DNA from: the human T2T-CHM13v2.0 reference genome, Homo sapiens | Assembly: GCF_009914755.1 (NCBI RefSeq) | Contig: NC_060932.1 | DNA: 64,000 nt | Reading direction: 5' to 3' (one strand) | Shown here: positions 4,060 to 64,000 of the stretch, in pieces | Position numbering within the stretch: position 1 is the stretch's first letter | How the letters are laid out: each line of letters starts with the position of its first letter | The notes under the pieces: model-generated | Seen by the model: the letters and a program-made list of their open reading frames with translations, nothing else | What the model was told of the DNA's origin: nothing | Databases searched by the model: none | Program-made: the position numbers and the translations under genes

Positions 4060-17973
<13,914 letters not shown>

Positions 17974-18019
17974 AAGACTTCACTGTGGAAGAAATTCCTT
18001 CCTTACCTGAAAGGTTCAG
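17974..18019 (+). pseudogene. Vestigial juxtamembrane coding segment and fossil exon-5 donor of TNFRSF10C (now 3'UTR)
   Basis: In frame after TGA: KTSLWKKFLPYLKGSG, then GTAGGC. Aligns to TNFRSF10D exon 5 end RKKFISYLKGICSG|GTAGGT. Confidence 0.9.
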
Positions 18020-18598
18020 GTAGGCGCTGGCTGAGGGCGGGGGGCGCTGGACACTCTCTGCCCTGCCTCCCTCTGCTGTGTTCCCACAGACAGAAACGCC
18101 TGCCCCTGCCCCAAGTCCTGGTGTCTCCAGCCTGGCTCTATCTTCCTCCTTGTGATCGTCCCATCCCCACATCCCGTGCACCCCCCAGGACCCTGGTCTC
18201 ATCAGTCCCTCTCCTGGAGCTGGGGGTCCACACATCTCCCAGCCAAGTCCAAGAGGGCAGGGCCAGTTCCTCCCATCTTCAGGCCCAGCCAGGCAGGGGG
18301 CAGTCGGCTCCTCAACTGGGTGACAAGGGTGAGGATGAGAAGTGGTCACGGGATTTATTCAGCCTTGGTCAGAGCAGAACACAGAGATTTTCCGTGTGTT
18401 GGTTTTTACTCTAGTTCCCCTTCTCATCCCCCTTCCTCAGGGTGTCCCCTAATTGCAAGGCCCCATTCCTGTCCCCAGCCCCAGGGCTCCTTGTCCAGTG
18501 TCCCAGCCCCCAGCCCAGCCCTGTGCCCCACTGTCCTCTGGGAGGGAGGTGCTGCATGGGCCCCTCCCCACCTGCTAAGGAGACTCGTTCTCTTCCAA

Positions 18599-18630
18599 GT
18601 GGTGAAAGGGCCCCTGAGCGTGTAGACAGA
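18599..18630 (+). pseudogene. Fossil exon 6 of TNFRSF10C (32 nt, acceptor AG>AA)
   Basis: ttccAA|GTGGTGAAAGGGCCCCTGAGCGTGTAGACAGA|GTGACT vs 10D ttccAG|GTGGTGGAGGAGGTCCCGAACGTGTGCACAGA|GTGAGT. Confidence 0.9.
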
Positions 18631-19104: not shown

Positions 19105-19225
19105 GTCTTTTTCCGGCACTCACATCGCCCACCAAGGCCTGGGTGGGTGAGAACAGTGCCCACAAGGAGACCCTGAGTAACAGAGACTCACAGCCCATCC
19201 AGGTCTCTGGGCAGGAAATTGAAGG
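19105..19225 (+). pseudogene. Fossil, truncated exon 7 of TNFRSF10C (acceptor lost, frameshift)
   Basis: VFFRHSHRPPRPG / ENSAHKETLSNRDSQPIQVSGQEIEG vs 10D VLFRRRSCPSRVPGAEDNARNETLSNRYLQPTQVSEQEIQG. Confidence 0.88.
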
Positions 19226-19357
19226 AATCATCACATTTTACAGAGGAGGAGACTGCAGCTCAGAGTGGGGGAAGTGTGTGCACCAGGCCACAGGCAAGTC
19301 TGTCCAGAGCACTGGTAGGAATGAGGGAAACTAGGAATGACCACTTTAAAAAGTTAG

Positions 19358-19761
<404 letters not shown>

Positions 19762-20029
19762 TTACGCGCATCACCCCCTCACCCCATGTCTGCTGTTGGG
19801 TCTCAGCACTGGGTGGAGGGAGGGGCAATAGTCCTGGTGAAGAGGAGGGGGGAGCGGCACCAGCTGGAGTGGGGCCTCTGCCGCTGCCTCTTCCTGCTGT
19901 GGTTTCTCCGGCTTAGACTGCCCCTCTCACCTGGCTTGTCTGTGGGGAGATCTTTGTTCTCTGGCTGCTTTTAAGACTTTCTCCTTAACAGTGGTTTCAG
20001 CAATTCGATTGAGGCAAAAAGGAGCTGCA

Positions 20030-20612
20030 GAAGCCATGTCTGTAGCATTTGTGGCCTCCCCTTCTGTATAATAGCAGCCATGTTTTGGCCTCTGCAGGGC
20101 TAAGGTCCTCTGAGCAGCTGCTTCTCCACATCTCTGCCATGCACTCGGCCTCGGAGCTCCTGGTGTTCCTCAGCAGAGTCCACAGGGCTCTTTGGGGTCC
20201 CCTCCCTGTGCTGTAGCCTGGAATCTGTGACCTGAGGCGGTGAGCTGAGGCCACCACTGGGCTCACCTCATGGGCTTGGAGGGAAAGTCACTCCCCCAGG
20301 AAGTAGGTGATGAGCCCTTTACTCTGAGAATGTCTGCGCCTGGTGGTGGTGGGAGGACAAATGAGCCCTGTGTCAGTCCTGCTCCCTGAAGCCCACAGTC
20401 TGGTGGAGGAGGTGTCACCAGGGACCTAAATAGCTATCAGGAAGCATGGGGGCCACCTCCCCGCTCCCTGCACCTCCAGAGAGACTGCCGGCTCCAGGAA
20501 TGTCATCCCTCCCTACTTGACTCTGGCAGAGGGAGGCTGTGCCGTTGCAAGGCCCCAGGTCAAGATATTGGTGGCCTGGAGGATGTGATTTCATTAAAGT
20601 CAACATTGAGGG
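20030..20612 (+). repeat. Third paralogous copy of an intron-1 segment
   Basis: Aligns to 6845-7325 (+) and 60910-61450 (-), e.g. CCTCAGCAGAGTCCACAGGGCTCTT and GAGCCCTTTACTCTGAGAA. Confidence 0.88.
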
Positions 20613-21380
20613 GAATGATTGTACTAACAACAGCATGTGCTGAAATACAGTACTTGCGCGTGCCAAGCTCTGTTCTCAGCACTTTATACACATATGAACA
20701 CACTTAATCCTCATACAACCAGACTGTACAGGAACCCTCATTGTCCTTGTCTTAGACAAGCAGCGTGAGACGCAGAACATTCGTTCAGTGGAGGGGCTGG
20801 GCACGGAGATGAGTGACCCTGAGGGGCAGCAGCAATGATTGGGTCACTGGGTTCTGCTGACCTTTCCCAGGGGAGTATTTGGTGCTTGTTCGTGAGGCCT
20901 GCATTCACCTAGCGCTGGGTCACAGCTGGGGGTCCCTGAGAAGTCATTTAAGGTCACCTCTTATTTCAGGAATGAAACATATTTAGATAAGAAGTGGCTT
21001 CCCCTGGACCGTGATGCTGGCCCAAGACTACAAGACAGATGGCTTGCTTCTTAATCCAAGGTTCTTCTTATACCAAAAGAACAAAGAAAGAAAAAAGCCA
21101 CAAAAGACTCAAAAGAAGCAGATTTCCCACCACAGCACAACCTCAGAACAATTCTGAGTTGCTCATTTTAAGATCAACGAGGCATTTTTAGGGCATGTAT
21201 GCCTGAGAGAGGAAATCAATGTGAACGGCAAACTTCCCTCTAAAACAGCCTAATACAACACTGGTCCAGGAGGAACAAGGCAAGGAAACCCCCTGGTGAA
21301 TGACTCATCTCAGGAAGAGGCAGGGCAGGGTCAGGAGAGTCTATGGAGGAGAAGACCTGGAACAAGACCTCTCTCTCTTG

Positions 21381-21387
<7 letters not shown>

Positions 21388-21423
<36 letters not shown>
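21388..21423. repeat. (CA)n microsatellite
   Basis: Direct reading. Confidence 0.95.
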
Positions 21424-21426
<3 letters not shown>

Positions 21427-21989
21427 CACACCCCTATGAGCCCAAATCTATGAATTGAGAACCTCATTCTCTGACCTCACCTTCCATCTCCCTCAATCAG
21501 AGATGCCCACAAACCTCAGAGCTGTGTCCCAGCATCACTTGTTTTGACTCCCGTCCCCAACTGCCTTGACTTCCTGTCTGCCTGGGAACCTGTCTGTGTG
21601 GACTTTTCCCTCTATGTCCACCAGTGTCCTGTCACCAGTGGCATTTGTCACCTCTGCCTGGGCAGCCCCACATGACTCTTTGCACCTTCATGGACTTTGG
21701 GGTTATTGATGTATGTGCCTCATCTCCCTGTGAACTGGAACTGTCCTAAGGAAAGGGAGGGTCGTGCCTTATTCCTGATACTCCACGATTCCTTGTATAG
21801 TGTGGCCACCAGGCACTGACATGCTCTCCTTGGATGAATGAGTACTGTGGGTTCTAGGAAGCCCGCATGAATGCAGATGTGATGTCCTCAGCCTTTCATA
21901 GACATGTTTCATGTGAGAGGTGGGAAGAGCAGCTGAACAGAAGGCTGAGGACTGCCCAGGTCCAGAGTCACCAAGAGCTTGTTGTCAGG

Positions 21990-23405
21990 TTTTCACTTGC
22001 TATTCGCAGAGATTTTTTTTAAAGGCACTATTTGTAGTGTTAAAAGGGTGAATTTATCAGAAGGCATAATAATCATAAATGTGTATATGCCTAATAATAG
22101 AACTTTAAAAGGCATGAAGCAACACTCAAAAGGATTAAAGGGAGATCATCTCACCCCCTTCTTACCAATTGATAGAATGATCTGATGAAAACAGTAAAAT
22201 AACAACAGATCTGAACACTGTCAACCATCTTGACAAATACTTATGCCTAGTGTTCCATTATTGGAACACTAAACATGTGGAATGATTTATATCCTACTGC
22301 TCAAGGTCATCACCAAGGTCTAATTGTAAAATTTCAAAAAATTGCAACCTCAGGCATAAATGGGTTAATCGACATTTATAGCACACACATGCAACATGTA
22401 CCAGAGATTCCTTCTTTTCTATGAACATGGTACTTCCACCAAGATAGACCACATTGTGAACTATAAAACAAATCTAAAAACATTTGAAATGAAGGAAATT
22501 ATATAAAATATGTTCTCTGATCTCAATGAAATTAAATTAATAACTATATCTAGAAAAACTCCCAATATGTGAATATTAAGCAACATACTTATAAAAAATT
22601 CATAGTTCATGGATGAAATCAAAAGAGAATTCAAAATATTTCAAAATAAATTATGATGATTATATAAAATGTAGAAATGTGTGGGATGCCACTACACCAG
22701 TTCTTAGAGTGAAATGCACAGCTTTCAAGGCTTCTGTTAAAAGAGTTGGGAATTACAAAACAAGGAGCAGCGACTGCCAATGGGTGTGGAGTCTTTTTTG
22801 GGGTGATGATGAAAATGTTCAAAAATTGATTTTATTGATGGTTACACACGTCTATAAATATATTTAAACGGAAGAATTATATGATATATATGTGATATAT
22901 GAAGTATATCTCTGTAAAATTCCTAAGGATTAAAAGAAGAATGGTATCACAATCAATGACTCAGAGGTCTGCATTACTCACCCATAACATAAGTGTAAAT
23001 TAAACTCAGAGGCAGTAGCAGGAAGGGAAAGAAATAATAGAGTAGAAATTAATGAAATAGAATACAAAGAATAAAAGGAATCAACAAGCCAAGAGTTGGG
23101 TCTCAGAAATGATCAACACAATTAATAAAATTAATAAACCAAACCTCAAAAGAAAAAGAACAATGGCATGAAACACCAATATCAAGAATTAATGATGGGA
23201 TATTATTACAAACTCTACAGCTATTACAAGGATAATAGTGGGATCTGATGAATAACTTTATGCGAAAAAAATTCAACAACTTAGGTGAAATAGAGAAATT
23301 TCTTGAAAAACCCTACTTAGCAAAATAGTCACAAGAGGTAAAGATCATTTAAATATTTCTACAGCTATCTAAGAATTGGAATTTATCATTTAAAAGCTTA
23401 CAATG
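21990..23405 (+). mobile_element. Old degenerate L1M ORF2 fragments
   Basis: INVYMPNNR peptide; CACCAAGATAGACCACAT; GAAATTTCTTGAAAA. Confidence 0.65.
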
Positions 23406-23409
23406 ATGA

Positions 23410-27493
<4,084 letters not shown>

Positions 27494-27660
27494 TGAAGGG
27501 TCTCAGATGAAAAAGGTGAATGAATATCAGTGAATGTCACTTGTTTCTTTTTATATTCTTTAAACGAGGCTGTACAAAACATAAGCTCGTATTCCTGGCC
27601 CTCTCTCTCTCTAAGGAAGGCGGTGTGCCGTGTGATGCACACACATTTTATTGAATCCCA

Positions 27661-28682
<1,022 letters not shown>

Positions 28683-29234
28683 CCCTCGCAGTCCTGAGAT
28701 CTGGGTGGGGTTGCTCCCTCTTGGGGTGACTTATTGCTCAGGATCTGTTTGCCCCACCTACCTCTGCCCCGGCCTCAGGGAATGAGGCTGAGCTGGGTGT
28801 AAACAGAGATCCCCCCCACAGACCCTGCGGTTTCCACAGATGCAGAAGTGGCCACCCTGGGACCTGCTCCCATGACAAGCGCAGCCCAGGCAGCCTCCTC
28901 CCTCCTCTGAGCTCCTGCTGCAGCCACTGTCTCTCCCTCCCTCGGACTCTCACCCACTTTGCTTTCAGCCTCACTGGATGGGTTCTCAGCCCTGTGTGAG
29001 GGCTGATTCTCTGATGACCTTGACTCCCTGCAGCGCCTTGGGTGTCAGGGAGGCCAGGCAGTGTGGGCGCGCTCTCTATGGATGGGAAGCAGGTGGGCGC
29101 TGGAGCAGTAGGTTCATCCATGCAGGGGGCTCTCCAGGTTCCCCCCTTGGGTTCTGGGCCTAATGTGGGAACTTCTGTCCTTTCTGAACTGAGTCCCAAT
29201 TCACCTGGCTCTCTACATGGCTTTCTCCACCCAG

Positions 29235-29460
29235 CTCAGAGGCTGTGCTTCTACAACTTTGGACAGATCCTACCCTTTAACTCCTGGAACCCGCTCATGA
29301 GGCAGCCGAGCCTCATGGACAATGAGATCCTCATGGCCAGAGCTGATGCAGCGATCCCTGGGAATGCCTTGTACGGATGCTAGTGAGATGGGTCAGCAAA
29401 ACCAGGTGGGGCCCCTTGGTCCACACCCTGCAGGATGCCTTGGAAACACTGGCAGAAAGA
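29235..29460 (+). pseudogene. Death-domain pseudo-exon of a TRAIL receptor (DR4/DR5-like last exon)
   Basis: Acceptor ctttctccacccAG; QRLCFYNFGQILPFNSWNPLMRQPSLMDNEILMARADAAIPGNALY [-1 nt] MLVRWVSKTRWGPLVHTLQDALETLAER, colinear with the DR5/DR4 death domain as I recall it. Confidence 0.92.
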
Positions 29461-29501
29461 TGTATTTACAGGCATAATTATTTTTTAAAAACTCTGAAGC
29501 T

Positions 29502-29819
<318 letters not shown>

Positions 29820-30214
29820 TTAGATGTTTTGGTCAATACATTCATTTGTCTCATTCTTTTTAACAAAAGCATAGTAGCTTCTTTCATAGTGGAACTATGG
29901 TCCATTCTACTGTTGCCTTCTGTGGGTAGTTGCATTTGTTTTTGAAAATTCTAACAGCAATCATCTTGTAGGTATCACATATCCAGATAGTCATGTGCAC
30001 TACTTAAAAGCAGAATTGCGGAGTCGATGAGTTAATGATTTAAAAATTTTGTTTAGATTTTGACAAATTGTCCTCCAAAAGAAAATTACAACAAGTTTAC
30101 TCTCACACCAAGAGTCCTACACCCTTGCTACTCTGAACTTTCATTCTTTGCTAGTCTAACAAGTAAACAATGGTGCATCTCACTGTTGTGGTTTTGATTT
30201 CTCAGCATTATTTG

Positions 30215-31080
30215 AGGATTTTCCAGGGTCCGGGAGTTTTCTGAGACTGAGTGTAAATGATCCGCAGACCTCAGATGAGATGGCAGAGGAGGGTGGCAGG
30301 GAAGACTGAATTCCCAGCTGTGCACTTGGAAAACCGTGGTCAGCTGGGGCCAGTCCCCACCACCTGCCATGGCTGTGAATGGAGATAAGGTCTCTGTCCT
30401 CAAGCTGTCAGGATGACCTCAAATGAGTCTGGAGCTGAACTCAGTTCCTGACCCCAGGTCCTCGCTCTGTCAGTGCTGGGCTGGTCCAATCTCTGTACCA
30501 GGTCCTTCCACCCCGCCCCTCTGTCTATCAAAGTGAGAACTGAGAAATTCTGAAGGCTCAGAAGCTTAGACACTCAGGCTGTCAAAGAGCCCAGAGATTG
30601 GAGGCTAAAGACGGCCAGGGTTGGCGGTGCTCCTCTTCAACTCTGTGACTCTGGTGTGGCCCAGCTCCTTCTTGTAAAATAAGACAGAGAGGCCTTATTT
30701 ATGCAGAGGGCCTGTATAAACCGCAGTGGACTGTGTTGGCAGTGTGAGGTTGTGTGGGAGGACAAACCACATCCTCAGGGCTTGTGTCAGTCACTCTGGA
30801 CTGGATTCCCAGGGCACATGTCCTCCACCCAGCAGAAGCTGCACCTGCTCCTACCTGCGCCTCAGTACCGGCTCCCTCAGCTTGGGGCAGAAGCTTCTAA
30901 AGACTAGGTTGGAGTGCCATGGGGAGGGGCCATGGAGGAACAGAGGTGCCAGACTGCAAGTGAGGACAGCGATGGCACTACAGGGCCACAGCCTGGTTTA
31001 CCTGCCATATTTCCAGTTGTCCTTCTGGTGGGTGCCCTGCCCAGGTTGCAGTTTGAAGAGTGAGCAGGAAAGGTGTCTGT
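30215..31080 (+). repeat. Third paralogous copy of another intron-1 segment
   Basis: Aligns to 5722-6555 (+) and 61745-62595 (-). The ORF track shows the same spurious peptide RTAMALQGHSLVYLP in all three copies. Confidence 0.92.
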
Positions 31081-33947: not shown

Positions 33948-35464
<1,517 letters not shown>

Positions 35465-36542
35465 CTTATTTACTGCTGGGTGGGATAAAGGGAAGAAGAA
35501 GAGGGAGAATGGAGAAGGAGGAAAGGCAGGGTTGGTCCAGAGAGGAGGAGAGCCGGGCTGGAGGAATGTGGAGGATGGAAATGGTAGCTCCCAGCCCCCA
35601 AGGGGCAAAGGCTGGGCCACAATTGCCCCTTTCTGTTTTCTAACCCTGACCCAAATTTCACTGCCCACATCCTTCTTAGATGTAAAAGATGCAGTCCCAC
35701 GGAGGAAGGGCAGAGCCAGGAGGCAGTGGGGCTCTGGGCTCAGAGCTCAGGAGTCACCTTGCCTGAGAAAGATGTTCTAGCTGAGAGGGCCTGGCCATGG
35801 GGTGGGCTCCAGGAAAACGCTGGTTAGGTCTGGGATAGAGCAAACTTGAAACAAAGACAACCCCTGCCATGGCTGTGTGGCGCCAAGACTTGGAGATCAG
35901 GGGTTAAATCCTCATAGACAGTAGGCGGTGGCAACACAAGCAGCTCTAACTCTGGGGGAAGCCATGTTGCCCAAGCCCAGGCCCCTCCATGCTCAGCCTC
36001 CATGCAGCTCACCCAGCCCAGGGTTCCAAGTGAGGCCATGGGCAGTGCAGGCGGGAAGCAGGAGGTAGCATGGAGCAGCCGCAGCCCCACCTCCCCTCTA
36101 GGGAAGGCAGACAGCATGGGAGCACGCCTGGGCCTCCTGGGAGCTGTGGGCCAGAGGGAGAGCAGGTCCTCCAGCGCAAGGGGAGTGGGAAATGGCTCTC
36201 ACAGGTGCCTGCAGGGCTGAGCAACCTGGGTCCACTGATGGGGATACAGGGAAGGGCTGCTGTCCCTCTCCCCAGAGGGAGGAGCAGACAGGAGAGAAAC
36301 AGGGAGGAGGCGCGAATTCCAGTAGCCAAGAACCTGGTCCTTTAAAATCCAGGGAGTCATAGGCAGGAAACTCCCCCCACACCCCCACCGCCAGGCGGGC
36401 CAAGCCTGAAGGCAGAGAAGGGACAAGTAAGGAGGCCCAGCAGGAACGAAGCCCTGGCCTCCTGTCACTCAGAGCTGTGTCACAGCAGGAGAGGAGGATG
36501 GAAATAAACGAACACCACACCTTTTTAATATGAGGTTTCATA

Positions 36543-36548
36543 TTTATT
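36543..36548 (-). terminator. Polyadenylation signal of TNFRSF10D
   Basis: AATAAA on the minus strand, followed about 20 nt later by GGTGTGGTGTTCGTTT. Confidence 0.75.
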
Positions 36549-37714
36549 TTGGTCATAAACATATGAGTATTTCATATATAACCAGGTGTTATGTGCTATT
36601 TGGCCCGGGTATAAAGCAAAACCTAAACAAATCAACCAACGCCAAAAAACCCCAACAATTTCATGTTGTCAGGAAGCTTATGTTAAAGGAATAAGCTTAA
36701 ACACTGATAAGGCTGGTAGTCTAGATGCATCTTCAAGGAAGGCCTCTGAGGAAGGGACAAAGGAGCTGGGACCGGACTGGCTCTCTCCGAGCTTTGAGAC
36801 CAAGTCTCCTGCACAGAAGGCCCAGCAAAGGCAAAGACTAGGAGGCAGCAGCACCCTGTGTCATCCAGAAGTGCAGGGGACAAGGTGTGGGACGCCAGAT
36901 GGAAGTGGGAGAGGATGGAAGTGCGAAGACCGGAAAGGCCATCCCCTCCTAAAACTCCATGGACACAACAATCTGAATGTGCGAACTTCAGGCAGTTCTA
37001 ACTTTGTCCCAGCCAAACCAGTCCCGGAACAAAACACACAATGCCTTGAGATGGAAAAGACTGAAACCCCTAGAATGACTATATCCGTAATTTATCCTAC
37101 CACGACTGGGCTACTGTGGAGAAGAGTTTGCTGGAAAGAAGCTAAAACGATTACTGAGGTTTTTAAATAAAATAATGGAACGTGACACAAGGACAAATGT
37201 GTCAGCCATTTTAGATCCCGTTGTCACAGTGTTTAAGAATTGATATCTCTGAGATGAGTCAGACGCTTACAGAGGGGCCAAGCTCCTCAAACAGGGAATC
37301 TGTACCCTAAAACGCAGCTCAGGAATCTCTGCCCTAAAAGGCATCCCAGGGACTCAGTTCACAGACCACCAGAAGCGAGAGGGGCCCATCCATGCCTGAG
37401 TCGGCAACCATTTCACACCATTCCCAAGCACCGTCCACTCTTCCCTCTTGATGCCATGGCAGATGCCGGGGCAGATAAACACCTGCTCTGCCCTGAGCCC
37501 AAATGAGGCTCAAGATTCACTAACGTTCAACTGTAATGGCGCTTGAAAGAGAAGGTCTTCGCAGTCTCGGATCTAACTTAATTCTCACTGTCCTCATCTG
37601 CTGTGGACAAGTCAGAAGATGCAGTCCCATGACTGTCCCAGCACGACAAACCAGACACATGGCTTCCCAAAGATACCAGGCTCTTCAAAATCCTGGGCAT
37701 ATGTAAACATCTAC

Positions 37715-37754
37715 TTATAAATAAATAAATAAATATTTATTTATAAATAAATAT
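37715..37754 (-). promoter_or_regulatory. AU-rich element (overlapping AUUUA pentamers) in TNFRSF10D 3'UTR
   Basis: Minus strand reads ATATTTATTTATAAATAAATATTTATTTATTTATTTATAA. Confidence 0.75.
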
Positions 37755-38403
37755 GGCTATATACCTCTAAAATTAACAAGTAAGACAAGCTGCCCCTTGA
37801 GAAGCTGCCAGCCATCAAACCCTGGTCCAGTCTCAGGGCGCAGGAGGGAGAACTGGAATGCAGTAAGTGCCTCCCACAGAGGGAGGATTTCTCCCTCCGT
37901 CACTAGTTATATTTTTAGTCATTTTTGACTGCTGATTTGTATCCAGGCAACCCATGTAAACAGCCTAATAAGTGCATTTCCTAAAGTTTTTCCATGTTTA
38001 CATCATTATACAAAAATCGGAAAAGAGATGTACAGCCTACAGTAGTAAGCAATATAAATGTTTCTCTAATTAAGGTGGGGGTAAGCCCCAATAATCCTAT
38101 CTTAAAGCTCAAAACTCTAAGTCGAACCCTCGTAAGTCCATATGCTCATGACTTAGCATAGGGCTACGTCTTGATAATCTCATCATTAAGTCAAAAATAT
38201 CCGAAACTGAAAATACAGGTAATAACAAGATAATCCCGTTCTAAAGTTAAAAAACTATAAGGCAAAGCATTGTGGCTGTGCGGCATCTGTAGTTAGATGT
38301 CATTAAATGCACACACCAGTAGAGATGGAGCTTGCAATATAAGAAGCAGAAAAAAAGACTTGTCTCATGATGAAGAACTGCAAAGAATGACATCCTAAAA
38401 CCA

Positions 38404-38538
38404 CTTTTTTTCTTTTTAAATTGAGATGGAGTTTCACTGTGTTGATGAGGCTGGTCTCAAACTCCCGAGCTCAAGCAATCCACCTGCCTCAGCCTATCAA
38501 AGTGCTGGGATTACAGGCATGAGCCACCGCATGTGGCC
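38404..38538 (-). mobile_element. Alu monomer (FLAM-like) in TNFRSF10D 3'UTR
   Basis: Left-arm Alu consensus only. Confidence 0.8.
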
Positions 38539-38803
38539 TAAAACGACCCTTAATACACAATCGTATAACTATGCAGCCAAGAATCTGATATAAATTTCTC
38601 CCGTTTGCTTATCACACGCAGTATTTCATAAAAATTACTCCAAGTGCGTTAACAAAGTTCTAGGACCATTGGTAAGCTGCCCCATATTGGATAGTAGAGT
38701 TTGTTGGGGCATGGGTCAAGTACTGGACTGTTTCTTCCAGGCTGCTTCCCTTTGTAGGAGAAAAGGTAAATGAGGGAAGCTCTGGTTTCCTGAAGAGATT
38801 CTT

Positions 38804-55910
<17,107 letters not shown>

Positions 55911-56169: not shown

Positions 56170-64000
<7,831 letters not shown>

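What the first reader, a model, noticed from the sequence alone, without database searches (positions are those of the whole stretch)
29235..29460. Orphan death-domain pseudo-exon 11 kb downstream of the decoy receptor that has no death domain
Seen: an intact polypyrimidine-AG acceptor opens a segment that spans two ORF-track frames (29042-29383 and 29377-29568). It reads QRLCFYNFGQILPFNSWNPLMRQPSLMDNEILMARADAAIPGNALY-MLVRWVSKTRWGPLVHTLQDALETLAER, with one 1-nt deletion at about 29375. Known (from memory): the DR5 death domain reads LRQCFDDFADLVPFDSWEPLMRKLGLMDNEIKVAKAEAAGHRDTLYTMLIKWVNKTGRDASVHTLLDALETLGER. Inference: it is on the same strand as TNFRSF10C and follows fossil exons 5-7 in order, so it is probably the lost terminal exon of a death-signalling ancestor of DcR1. 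Alternatively it is a relic of a separate paralog. Homology stops at about 29460, so the final helix is gone. I cannot tell whether it is already annotated.
Basis: partly seen in the sequence, partly recalled or inferred. Interest (0 to 1): 0.8.

Follow-up and report, generated by a model that had tools for sequence, protein, structure and literature searches.

The report
Stranded death-domain exon relic beside TNFRSF10C
A decayed, frameshifted and cut-off copy of the death-domain exon of the TRAIL death receptors lies unannotated between the two human TRAIL decoy-receptor genes; it is a dead gene fossil, and it shows that the decoy lineage once carried the part of the death domain that both decoys now lack.

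Summary
Window 29235-29460 (+) is an unprocessed relic of the terminal death-domain (DD) exon of a TRAIL receptor. It keeps its intron and acceptor, has a 1-nt deletion at 29374/29375, and homology ends sharply at 29460. It matches the TNFRSF10A and TNFRSF10B last exons (blastn E 1e-36 and 5e-34; tblastn E about 1e-18). It matches nothing else in the genome, and neither of the two is closer.

The relic looks dead: pN/pS on its branch is about 1.3, and it has no 3' end.

Continuity is not shown, for three reasons:
- Exon 7 is cut at 19225 and followed by a 4-kb copy of TNFRSF10A intron 1.
- The exon-8 block is about three times more diverged than the relic's own intron.
- The whole interval is a mosaic.

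A partial inverted copy of the relic lies near LOC254896 and shares a transposon insertion with it.

TNFRSF10D lost exactly the first 184 nt of this exon through a separate 1.2-kb deletion.

Interest is modest. It is an ordinary kind of feature (an unannotated pseudo-exon) in a medically well-studied cluster.

The parts
29235..29460 (+). Death-domain pseudo-exon (psiDD): the first 226 nt of the terminal exon of a TRAIL receptor. It has a 1-nt deletion between 29374 and 29375 and no in-frame stop once the shift is allowed for.
29221..29234 (+). Retained polypyrimidine tract and AG acceptor of the former intron 8.
   Evidence: It aligns base for base with the 10A and 10B acceptors.
28683..29234 (+). 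The 3' part of former intron 8. K80 is 0.13-0.18 to 10A, 10B and the X' copy alike.
28282..28680 (.). Alu insertion, absent from the X' copy and so later than that duplication.
   Evidence: Hub mask list; Alu-type multi-copy matches; the gap in the X' alignment.
27660..28281 (.). A 622-bp dispersed repeat inserted in former intron 8. Within the cluster only the X' copy shares it (88%); 10A and 10B lack it.
   Evidence: 3416 first-look candidates, 40 scored, spread over many chromosomes; 10A and 10B are contiguous across the site.
27542..27659 (+). Piece of former intron 8 joined directly to the truncated exon-8 fossil. The junction lies in a 6-nt microhomology, TGAATG.
27482..27541 (+). Exon-8 fossil. 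Its last 13 nt or so and the GT donor are missing, and it is heavily altered.
27147..27472 (.). Alu with a target-site duplication just upstream of the exon-8 fossil; absent from X'.
   Evidence: both flanks align to 10D 39211-39199.
25093..27146 (+). The 3' end of former intron 7, interrupted by Alus. K80 is 0.51-0.61 to 10A, 10B and 10D. A 340-bp block at 26225-26568 is shared only with 10D and D'.
19225..23386 (+). S2: a sense-oriented copy of TNFRSF10A intron 1 (10A window coordinates 120850 to 116432), K80 0.09-0.13. It replaces the rest of exon 7 and the 5' part of intron 7.
19105..19224 (+). Exon-7 fossil of the 10C unit, cut sharply at 19225.
18599..18630 (+). Exon-6 fossil, lying beyond the annotated 3' end of 10C (18387).
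17971..18019 (+). The 10C stop codon TGA, where 10B has TGC (Cys), followed by the still-recognisable juxtamembrane coding remainder of exon 5. The old donor CAG|GTAGGC at 18019/18020 is intact.
29461..30033 (.). Sequence after the break. It is an Alu with a target-site duplication (about 29500-29800) set in DNA that has no other copy in the genome.
30034..31077 (+). S4: a sense-oriented piece of TRAIL-receptor intron 1 (10A 82%, 10D 79%, 10C 78%); specific to the cluster.
38897..38938 (-). Start of TNFRSF10D exon 9, the only part of 10D that overlaps the relic (it matches 29419-29460). 10D lacks the preceding 184 nt of the DD exon.

Best explanation
Window 29235-29460 is a non-functional, unprocessed fossil of the terminal death-domain exon of a TRAIL receptor from the decoy (TNFRSF10C/10D) lineage. 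Most probably it is the stranded last exon of the full-length receptor gene whose 5' half survives as TNFRSF10C.

**How the death domain was lost on this side (shown).**
- A TGC-to-TGA change directly after the membrane anchor ends the DcR1 protein.
- The transcript now ends inside former intron 5.
- Downstream, the exon 6, 7 and 8 fossils and the DD exon decay in order on the same strand.
- The DD exon has a 1-nt frameshift, lacks everything after codon 75 or so (the last helix, tail, stop codon and 3' UTR), and has evolved without constraint.

**Inferred.**
- The pieces were once one transcription unit.
- Later events broke it up:
  - a replacement at 19225-25093 that brought in a copy of 10A intron 1;
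  - a 530-bp deletion or so at a TGAATG microhomology between exon 8 and intron 8;
  - a transposon insertion and three Alu insertions;
  - a break at 29460.
- The uneven divergence reflects patchy gene conversion in this cluster.

The relic does nothing today.
For: **Identity as a DD exon.** Searches give E 1e-34 to 1e-51. The intron and acceptor are retained, so it is not a processed copy.

**Same strand and exon order behind 10C.**
- Exon-5 remainder, exon 6 and exon 7 fossils.
- Exon 8 fossil and the 3' end of intron 7.
- Intron 8 and the DD exon.

**Mirror position.** 10C and 10D are arms of an inverted duplication that reaches 9 kb upstream of 10C: -8898..-1 matches 82307..69699 at K 0.10-0.15. 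The relic therefore sits where the mirror image of 10D exon 9 should be.

**Grouping with 10D rather than DR4 or DR5.**
- 3:0:0 informative sites in the 42 shared nt.
- GTGAATG against GCAAATG in exon 8.
- A 340-bp intron-7 block found only in the relic, X', 10D and D'.
- The 10C body also pairs with 10D: 28 against 12 and 13 informative sites.

**One gene copy across the exon 8/intron 8 junction.** The junction lies in a 6-nt microhomology present in both parent sequences, as expected for a deletion inside a single gene copy.

**Neutral decay.** There are 5 synonymous and 23 non-synonymous private changes, pN/pS 1.29, against 0.84 for 10A and 0.48 for 10B.

**Patchy homogenisation is real here.** Within 1.4 kb of the 10C tail, K between 10B, 10C and 10D ranges from 0.045 to 0.35.
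Against: **Continuity is broken.**
- The 10C unit ends at 19225 against all three paralogs.
- The next 4.1 kb is 10A intron 1, not intron 7.
- 23723-24058 and 24300-24980 have no homolog in the cluster or the genome.

**The exon-8 block is much older.** It stands at K 0.51-0.61 from 10A, 10B and 10D, which differ from each other by only 0.16-0.24 there. The intron next to the DD exon is at 0.13-0.18. One undisturbed gene copy should not show a threefold difference. The gene-conversion explanation is an inference, not a result.

**Substitution trees cannot place the relic.** Quartet counts are 10, 12 and 7. The lowest count falls on the pairing with X', which a shared transposon insertion shows to be the true one.

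**The overlap with 10D is only 42 nt.**

**No other species and no RNA data could be examined.**
Confidence: 0.55

Rival explanations
1. The relic never belonged to TNFRSF10C. It would be the tail of another, older or partial paralog lying tail-to-tail with the 10D ancestor. Alternatively it would be a partial inverted copy of the 10D ancestor's own last exon, joined to such an older relic. On this reading the 10C copy was born truncated at exon 7 and merely landed next to it during the rearrangements that built the cluster.
For: - There are sharp junctions at 19225, 27541 and 29460.
- Fragments from different donors lie side by side: a 10D-like arm, 10A intron 1 (S2) and another intron-1 piece (S4 at 30034-31077).
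- The exon-8 and intron-7 block is far older than the 10C arm, K 0.5-0.6 against 0.10-0.18.
- The inverted copy near LOC254896 (X') carries the exon-8 block, the junction, the transposon and the start of the DD exon, but no 10C exon. It also keeps more old intron 7, matching 10D 43491-43681 at 64%.
- Other stray last-exon relics exist in the cluster: E at 78440-78354 and E' at -6829..-6746.
- pN/pS of about 1.3 fits a piece that was dead on arrival.
Against: - It needs strand and exon order (7, then 8, then 9) to match 10C by coincidence.
- The TGAATG microhomology junction looks like a simple deletion within one gene.
- Divergence is demonstrably patchy in this cluster, so 'older' may be an artefact of conversion elsewhere.
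- No second set of 5' exons is found between 18.4 and 36.5 kb.
Confidence: 0.37
2. The relic is still used. Its intact acceptor would be spliced in read-through TNFRSF10C transcripts or in an unannotated non-coding RNA, for example from the intact old donor at 18019/18020. Or the DNA would act as a regulatory element.
For: - The acceptor and polypyrimidine tract are intact.
- The former exon-5 donor is intact inside the 10C 3' UTR.
- RefSeq lists silencer and enhancer elements nearby (hub table), though none overlaps 29235-29460.
Against: - No RefSeq transcript or functional element covers it (hub table).
- Its substitution pattern is neutral.
- It has a frameshift and no 3' end.
- Any such splice would lie downstream of the 10C stop codon.
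- No expression data could be consulted.
Confidence: 0.05
3. The resemblance is a chance or low-complexity artefact, or the element is a processed (retrocopied) pseudogene.
For: Pfam's Death model does not match either fragment alone.
Against: - E-values are 1e-34 to 1e-51 at the DNA level and about 1e-18 at the protein level.
- About 550 nt of homologous intron are retained upstream, together with the acceptor. That excludes a retrocopy.
Confidence: 0.01

Closest known systems
Terminal (death-domain) exons of TNFRSF10B (DR5) and TNFRSF10A (DR4)
   Same: The exon start, acceptor and upstream intron are homologous. Nucleotide identity is 75-76% and amino-acid identity 49-58% over codons 1-75. 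The intact paralog exons match Pfam Death PF00531 at 1e-20.
   Different: The relic has a 1-nt frameshift. It lacks everything after the codons for ...ETLAER, that is the end of the domain, the C-terminal tail, the stop codon and the 3' UTR. It evolves neutrally. Its fragments do not reach the Pfam threshold. It has no upstream exon to splice from.
TNFRSF10D (DcR2) exon 9, the 'truncated death domain'
   Same: It derives from the same ancestral exon. The two overlap by 42 nt (29419-29460 against 38938-38897, 34 of 42 identical) and share 3 sites against DR4 and DR5.
   Different: The two are near-complementary remnants. 10D keeps the 3' part and lost the first 184 nt plus most of intron 8 through a deletion of about 1.2 kb (10B coordinates -75016 to -76239), which made a new acceptor from a natural pyrimidine tract. 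The relic keeps the 5' part. The breakpoints do not coincide, so these are separate events.
TNFRSF10B-AS1 transcribed pseudogene and the LOC254896 region (called D' and X' here)
   Same: X' (window -12092 to about -14560, minus strand) is an inverted copy of 25240-29297. It shares the exon-8/intron-8 junction and the 622-bp transposon with the relic (K 0.15-0.17). D' copies the 10D 3' end, including its truncated exon 9.
   Different: X' keeps only about 60 nt of the DD exon, with an internal deletion, and is fused directly to the D' flank. D' is annotated in RefSeq; the relic in the window is not (hub table).
Unprocessed (duplicated) pseudogene fragments, or fossil exons, in tandem gene clusters
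   Same: Intron-exon structure is retained, disabling mutations are present, evolution is neutral, and the fragment lies beside functional paralogs.
   Different: Nothing differs in kind. The local points of interest are that it documents the lost cytoplasmic half of a decoy receptor, and that the interval is a mosaic of fragments with very different divergences.

Membership tests
Death domain (Pfam PF00531) | Significant match to the family profile | tested here: not met
   0 families at E up to 10 for every fragment tried: 4 pieces and 2 pieces. The positive controls, the 10A and 10B last-exon peptides, scored 1.1e-20 and 1.3e-20. The frame-joined peptide was not submitted.
Death domain (Pfam PF00531) | Homology to a bona fide death-domain exon | tested here: met
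   tblastn gave E 6.8e-18 (10A) and 8.5e-19 (10B). blastn gave E 9.6e-37 and 4.9e-34. nhmmer gave E 1.4e-51.
Death domain (Pfam PF00531) | Complete six-helix domain in one open frame | tested here: not met
   There is a 1-nt deletion at 29374/29375. The relic covers residues 3-79 of the 10B exon peptide, whose Death match spans residues 6-88. The end of the domain is therefore absent. The assignment of helices is recalled, not computed.
Unprocessed (duplication-derived) pseudogene fragment | Flanking intron and splice site retained; no poly-A or retrocopy structure | tested here: met
   Intron homology to 10A and 10B runs from 28683 to 29234, and the acceptor is intact.
Unprocessed (duplication-derived) pseudogene fragment | Disabling lesions and neutral substitution pattern | tested here: met
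   Frameshift, 3' truncation, and pN/pS 1.29 from 5 synonymous and 23 non-synonymous changes.
Former terminal exon of TNFRSF10C | Same strand, downstream, and in exon order after 10C's own fossil exons | tested here: met
   Fossils lie at 17974-18019, 18599-18630, 19105-19224 and 27482-27541, followed by 29235-29460, all on the + strand.
Former terminal exon of TNFRSF10C | Uninterrupted homologous intron DNA linking it to the 10C body | tested here: not met
   There is a break at 19225. 19225-23386 is 10A intron 1. 23723-24058 and 24300-24980 are unmatched.
Former terminal exon of TNFRSF10C | Same divergence age as the 10C body, and sister to 10D | tested here: inconclusive
   The intron-8 block at K 0.13-0.18 fits the 10C arm at 0.10-0.18, but the exon-8 block is at 0.51-0.61. 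3:0:0 sites favour 10D, but over only 42 nt. Quartets are otherwise unresolved.
Former terminal exon of TNFRSF10C | Orthologous exon spliced to 10C exons in some other species | not testable with these tools
   Only this human assembly could be searched (header). No primate genomes or RNA data were available.

The most novel reading that the evidence does not exclude
TNFRSF10C was 'born a decoy'. On this reading one replication-based complex rearrangement copied the 10D-ancestor locus in inverted orientation and switched templates several times. It went from the 10D-like arm as far as exon 7, then to 10A intron 1, then to an older exon-8 relic, then to the intron-8/DD exon, and then to another intron-1 piece. 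The death-domain piece would then be a by-product of template switching that was never expressed with the DcR1 ectodomain. The relic would also be the only surviving record of the 61 codons that DcR2 later deleted.
Probability: 0.2. Interest if true: 0.5.

Novelty: new member of a known kind. Interest (0 to 1): 0.33.

Why it matters
It gives direct sequence evidence that the DcR1/DcR2 lineage descends from a receptor with a full-length death-domain exon. It also shows that the two human decoys lost death signalling by different lesions:
- On the 10C side, a TGC-to-TGA stop, early polyadenylation and later scrambling.
- In 10D, a 1.2-kb deletion that made a new acceptor.

It also exposes how rearranged and patchily homogenised the 8p21 TRAIL-receptor cluster is. 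That matters for anyone who reads paralog trees, maps short reads, or interprets structural variants and methylation probes in the 10C-10D interval.

It has no evident present-day function. Its value is evolutionary and for annotation.

Tried and rejected
**Pfam.** Pfam on the separate fragments gave nothing. The fragments are too short. I did not submit a joined, frame-corrected peptide.

**Protein Data Bank.** The sequence search gave only chance-level hits, YvgN at E 0.44.

**Substitution-based placement of the relic.**
- K80 distances and four-taxon site counts on 28683-29460 gave a star (10, 12, 7). They failed even to recover the relic-X' pairing that a shared transposon proves. I therefore rejected distance trees as a way to decide whose exon it is.
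- A quartet on the exon-8 block was also uninformative: 5, 4 and 0, with 56 private changes on the relic.

**Idea: the relic is the very piece excised from 10D (cut and paste).** Rejected. The left breakpoints differ by about 345 bp in 10B coordinates, and the right ends overlap by 42 nt.

**Idea: the intron-1-like pieces (20-23 kb and 30-31 kb) are ordinary transposons.** Rejected. They occur only in this cluster.

**Idea: 34022-34792 is a second copy of intron 8 and so hides a second relic.** Rejected. It matches the part that is a dispersed repeat, and neither tblastn nor nhmmer finds a second DD exon.

**Search for the missing 3' end of the exon on the + strand after 29460.** Nothing was found apart from Alu matches.

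**Literature.** Seven full-text searches found no paper that describes this relic, the fossil exons behind TNFRSF10C or the structure of the cluster. I read passages of one review, PMC5877576. It says only that DR4 and DR5 arose by gene duplication. Subscription papers are outside that library.

**Other.**
- One script hit the time limit because of a loop error of mine and was rerun corrected.

Full report
**1.

The + strand at 29221-29234 is a pyrimidine tract ending in AG. The second half is in the frame that opens at 29377.

I took the real paralog exons from the window's own assembly rather than from memory.
- A DNA search of all 3.1 Gb returned 3 of 3 scored candidates:
  - the relic itself;
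  - C8:23466672-23466898 on the minus strand (76%, E 9.6e-37), which by the hub's coordinates lies in the last exon of TNFRSF10A;
  - C8:23297719-23297945 on the minus strand (75%, E 4.9e-34), in the last exon of TNFRSF10B.
- Pairwise alignment needs a single 1-nt gap at 29374/29375. It runs upstream into the intron and ends at 29460 for both paralogs.
- Translating the two genomic exons gives peptides that Pfam recognises as Death domains: PF00531, E 1.1e-20 and 1.3e-20.
- tblastn of those peptides against the window finds the relic as two linked HSPs in two frames, E 6.8e-18 and 8.5e-19.
- The relic's two fragments alone match no Pfam family and nothing meaningful in the Protein Data Bank. 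They are short, so I do not read this as evidence against homology.
- The relic covers residues 3-79 of the 10B exon peptide, whose Death match spans residues 6-88. The end of the domain, the tail, the stop codon and the 3' UTR are all missing.

**2. What precedes it**

The 10C stop codon is a TGA where 10B has TGC (Cys). The juxtamembrane coding sequence runs on recognisably to an intact old donor at 18019/18020. Four fossil exons follow on the same strand:

| Fossil | Window coordinates |
|---|---|
| Exon 6 | 18599-18630 |
| Exon 7 | 19105-19224 |
| Exon 8 | 27482-27541 |
| DD exon | 29235-29460 |

The exon-6 and exon-7 fossils lie beyond the annotated 3' end of 10C. The exon-8 fossil is preceded by the 3' end of intron 7, at 25093-27146.

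10C and 10D are arms of an inverted duplication that also includes 9 kb upstream of 10C. Window -8898..-1 matches 82307..69699 at K80 0.10-0.15. The relic sits where the mirror image of 10D exon 9 would be.

**3. The chain is not continuous**

- Homology of the 10C unit to 10A, 10B and 10D stops at 19223-19225, inside exon 7.
- From 19225 to 23386 the DNA is a sense-oriented copy of TNFRSF10A intron 1, K80 0.09-0.13. It is specific to the cluster and is not a transposon. The junction is sharp.
- 23723-24058 and 24300-24980 match nothing in the cluster or the genome.
- The exon-8 fossil lacks its last 13 nt or so and its donor. It is joined to mid-intron 8 at a 6-nt microhomology (TGAATG) that is present both in exon 8 and in intron 8 of 10A and 10B. 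This looks like one deletion of about 530 bp inside a single gene copy.
- After 29460 come about 270 bp with no other copy in the genome, an Alu with a target-site duplication, and then another sense-oriented intron-1 piece at 30034-31077.

**4. Ages disagree**

| Block | K80 to the functional paralogs |
|---|---|
| Intron next to the DD exon | 0.13-0.18 to 10A, 10B and X'; the same as 10A to 10B |
| DD exon itself | 0.26-0.31 among the relic, 10A and 10B |
| Exon 8 with the end of intron 7 | 0.51-0.61 to 10A, 10B and 10D, which differ by only 0.16-0.24 there |

I cannot explain this threefold difference with certainty. Divergence in this cluster is patchy elsewhere too: within 1.4 kb of the 10C tail, K among 10B, 10C and 10D ranges from 0.045 to 0.35. 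Gene conversion is therefore a reasonable inference, but it remains an inference.

**5. Whose exon is it?**

- Distance and quartet analyses give a star, with counts of 10, 12 and 7.
- They fail to recover even the true sister of the relic. That sister is X', an inverted copy at window -12092 to about -14560. It shares with the relic a 622-bp dispersed repeat that 10A and 10B lack, and it shares the exon-8/intron-8 junction.
- The rare characters that are available group the relic with 10D:
  - three sites to none in the 42-nt overlap;
  - a two-base signature in exon 8;
  - a 340-bp intron-7 block.
- The 10C body also pairs with 10D: 28 against 12 and 13 sites.

I put about 0.55 on the relic being the stranded last exon of the gene that became TNFRSF10C. 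I put about 0.37 on a separate or partial paralog stitched in beside it.

**6. It is dead**

Private changes on the relic's branch are 5 synonymous and 23 non-synonymous, pN/pS 1.29. The corresponding values are 0.84 for 10A and 0.48 for 10B. There is no sign that this copy was ever under constraint after it diverged.

**7. Related lesions**

- 10D lacks the first 184 nt of the DD exon. A deletion of about 1.2 kb joined a natural pyrimidine tract, 165 nt into intron 8, to an AG inside the exon.
- The pseudogene annotated as TNFRSF10B-AS1 carries the same lesion.
- The relic and 10D exon 9 are thus near-complementary remnants, but their breakpoints do not coincide.

**8. Novelty**

RefSeq lists nothing at this site (hub table). 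Seven full-text searches found no description of it. The only relevant text I read was passages of PMC5877576, which say that DR4 and DR5 arose by duplication. I could not consult GENCODE, other species or expression data.

It is an ordinary kind of object, an unannotated unprocessed pseudo-exon, with some evolutionary interest.

Noticed in passing
window 17971-18020: The DcR1 stop codon is TGA where 10B has TGC (Cys), directly after the hydrophobic anchor. The juxtamembrane coding sequence and the old exon-5 donor (CAG|GTAGGC at 18019/18020) survive inside the 10C 3' UTR.
   Followed up: partly
window 38938-39121 (10D intron 8) and 38897-38937: The truncated death domain of DcR2 comes from a deletion of about 1.2 kb (10B coordinates -75016 to -76239). 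It fused a natural pyrimidine tract, 165 nt into intron 8, to an AG inside the DD exon. TNFRSF10B-AS1 carries the same junction.
   Followed up: yes
C8:23343001-23373000 (loci L010-L012; window -29248 to about -9600): TNFRSF10B-AS1 and the start of LOC254896 are an inverted mosaic copy of window 25240-29297, 35916-40933 and 58475-62749. That is the relic's upstream part, then the 10D 3' end, then 10D intron 1. K is 0.11-0.17. The first exon of LOC254896 starts next to the junction.
   Followed up: partly
window -8898..-1 (L011, L012, L016) against window 69699-82307 (L017, L018): The 9 kb upstream of TNFRSF10C is an inverted copy of the region upstream of TNFRSF10D, so the 10C/10D inverted duplication reaches well beyond the genes.
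   Followed up: partly
window 78354-78440 (-) and -6829..-6746 (+): Two further stray relics of the end of a TRAIL-receptor last exon (nhmmer E 1.4e-6 and 3.3e-4), each followed by the 3'-flank sequence seen after 10D and 10B. They are remains of yet another lost gene copy and its inverted duplicate.
   Followed up: no
window 19225-23386 and 30034-31077: Two sense-oriented pieces of intron 1, both closest to TNFRSF10A (K 0.09-0.13 and 0.18). They are adjacent in 10A but lie in swapped order on either side of the relic. Their origin is unexplained.
   Followed up: partly
window 18231-18613: This stretch spans the 10C poly-A region, which is intron 5 in 10B and 10D. It is unusually similar among 10B, 10C and 10D (K 0.045-0.117, against 0.15-0.35 in the flanks). 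That points either to recent gene conversion or to a conserved element.
   Followed up: no
window 29235-29460 against 28683-29234: The DD exon diverges about twice as fast as its adjacent intron among the relic, 10A and 10B (K 0.26-0.31 against 0.13-0.18). pN/pS is only 0.48-0.84 in the functional genes, so the domain is evolving quickly.
   Followed up: no
window 17675-17901: Near-identical (97.8%) tandem repeats lie inside 10C exon 5. They encode the repeated TAPE-type peptide units seen in the translation of the 10C coding sequence.
   Followed up: no
window 25093-27541: The block holding the exon-8 fossil and the end of intron 7 is three times more diverged from all functional paralogs than the neighbouring DNA, yet it is joined to that DNA by what looks like a simple microhomology deletion. 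This is unexplained.
   Followed up: partly
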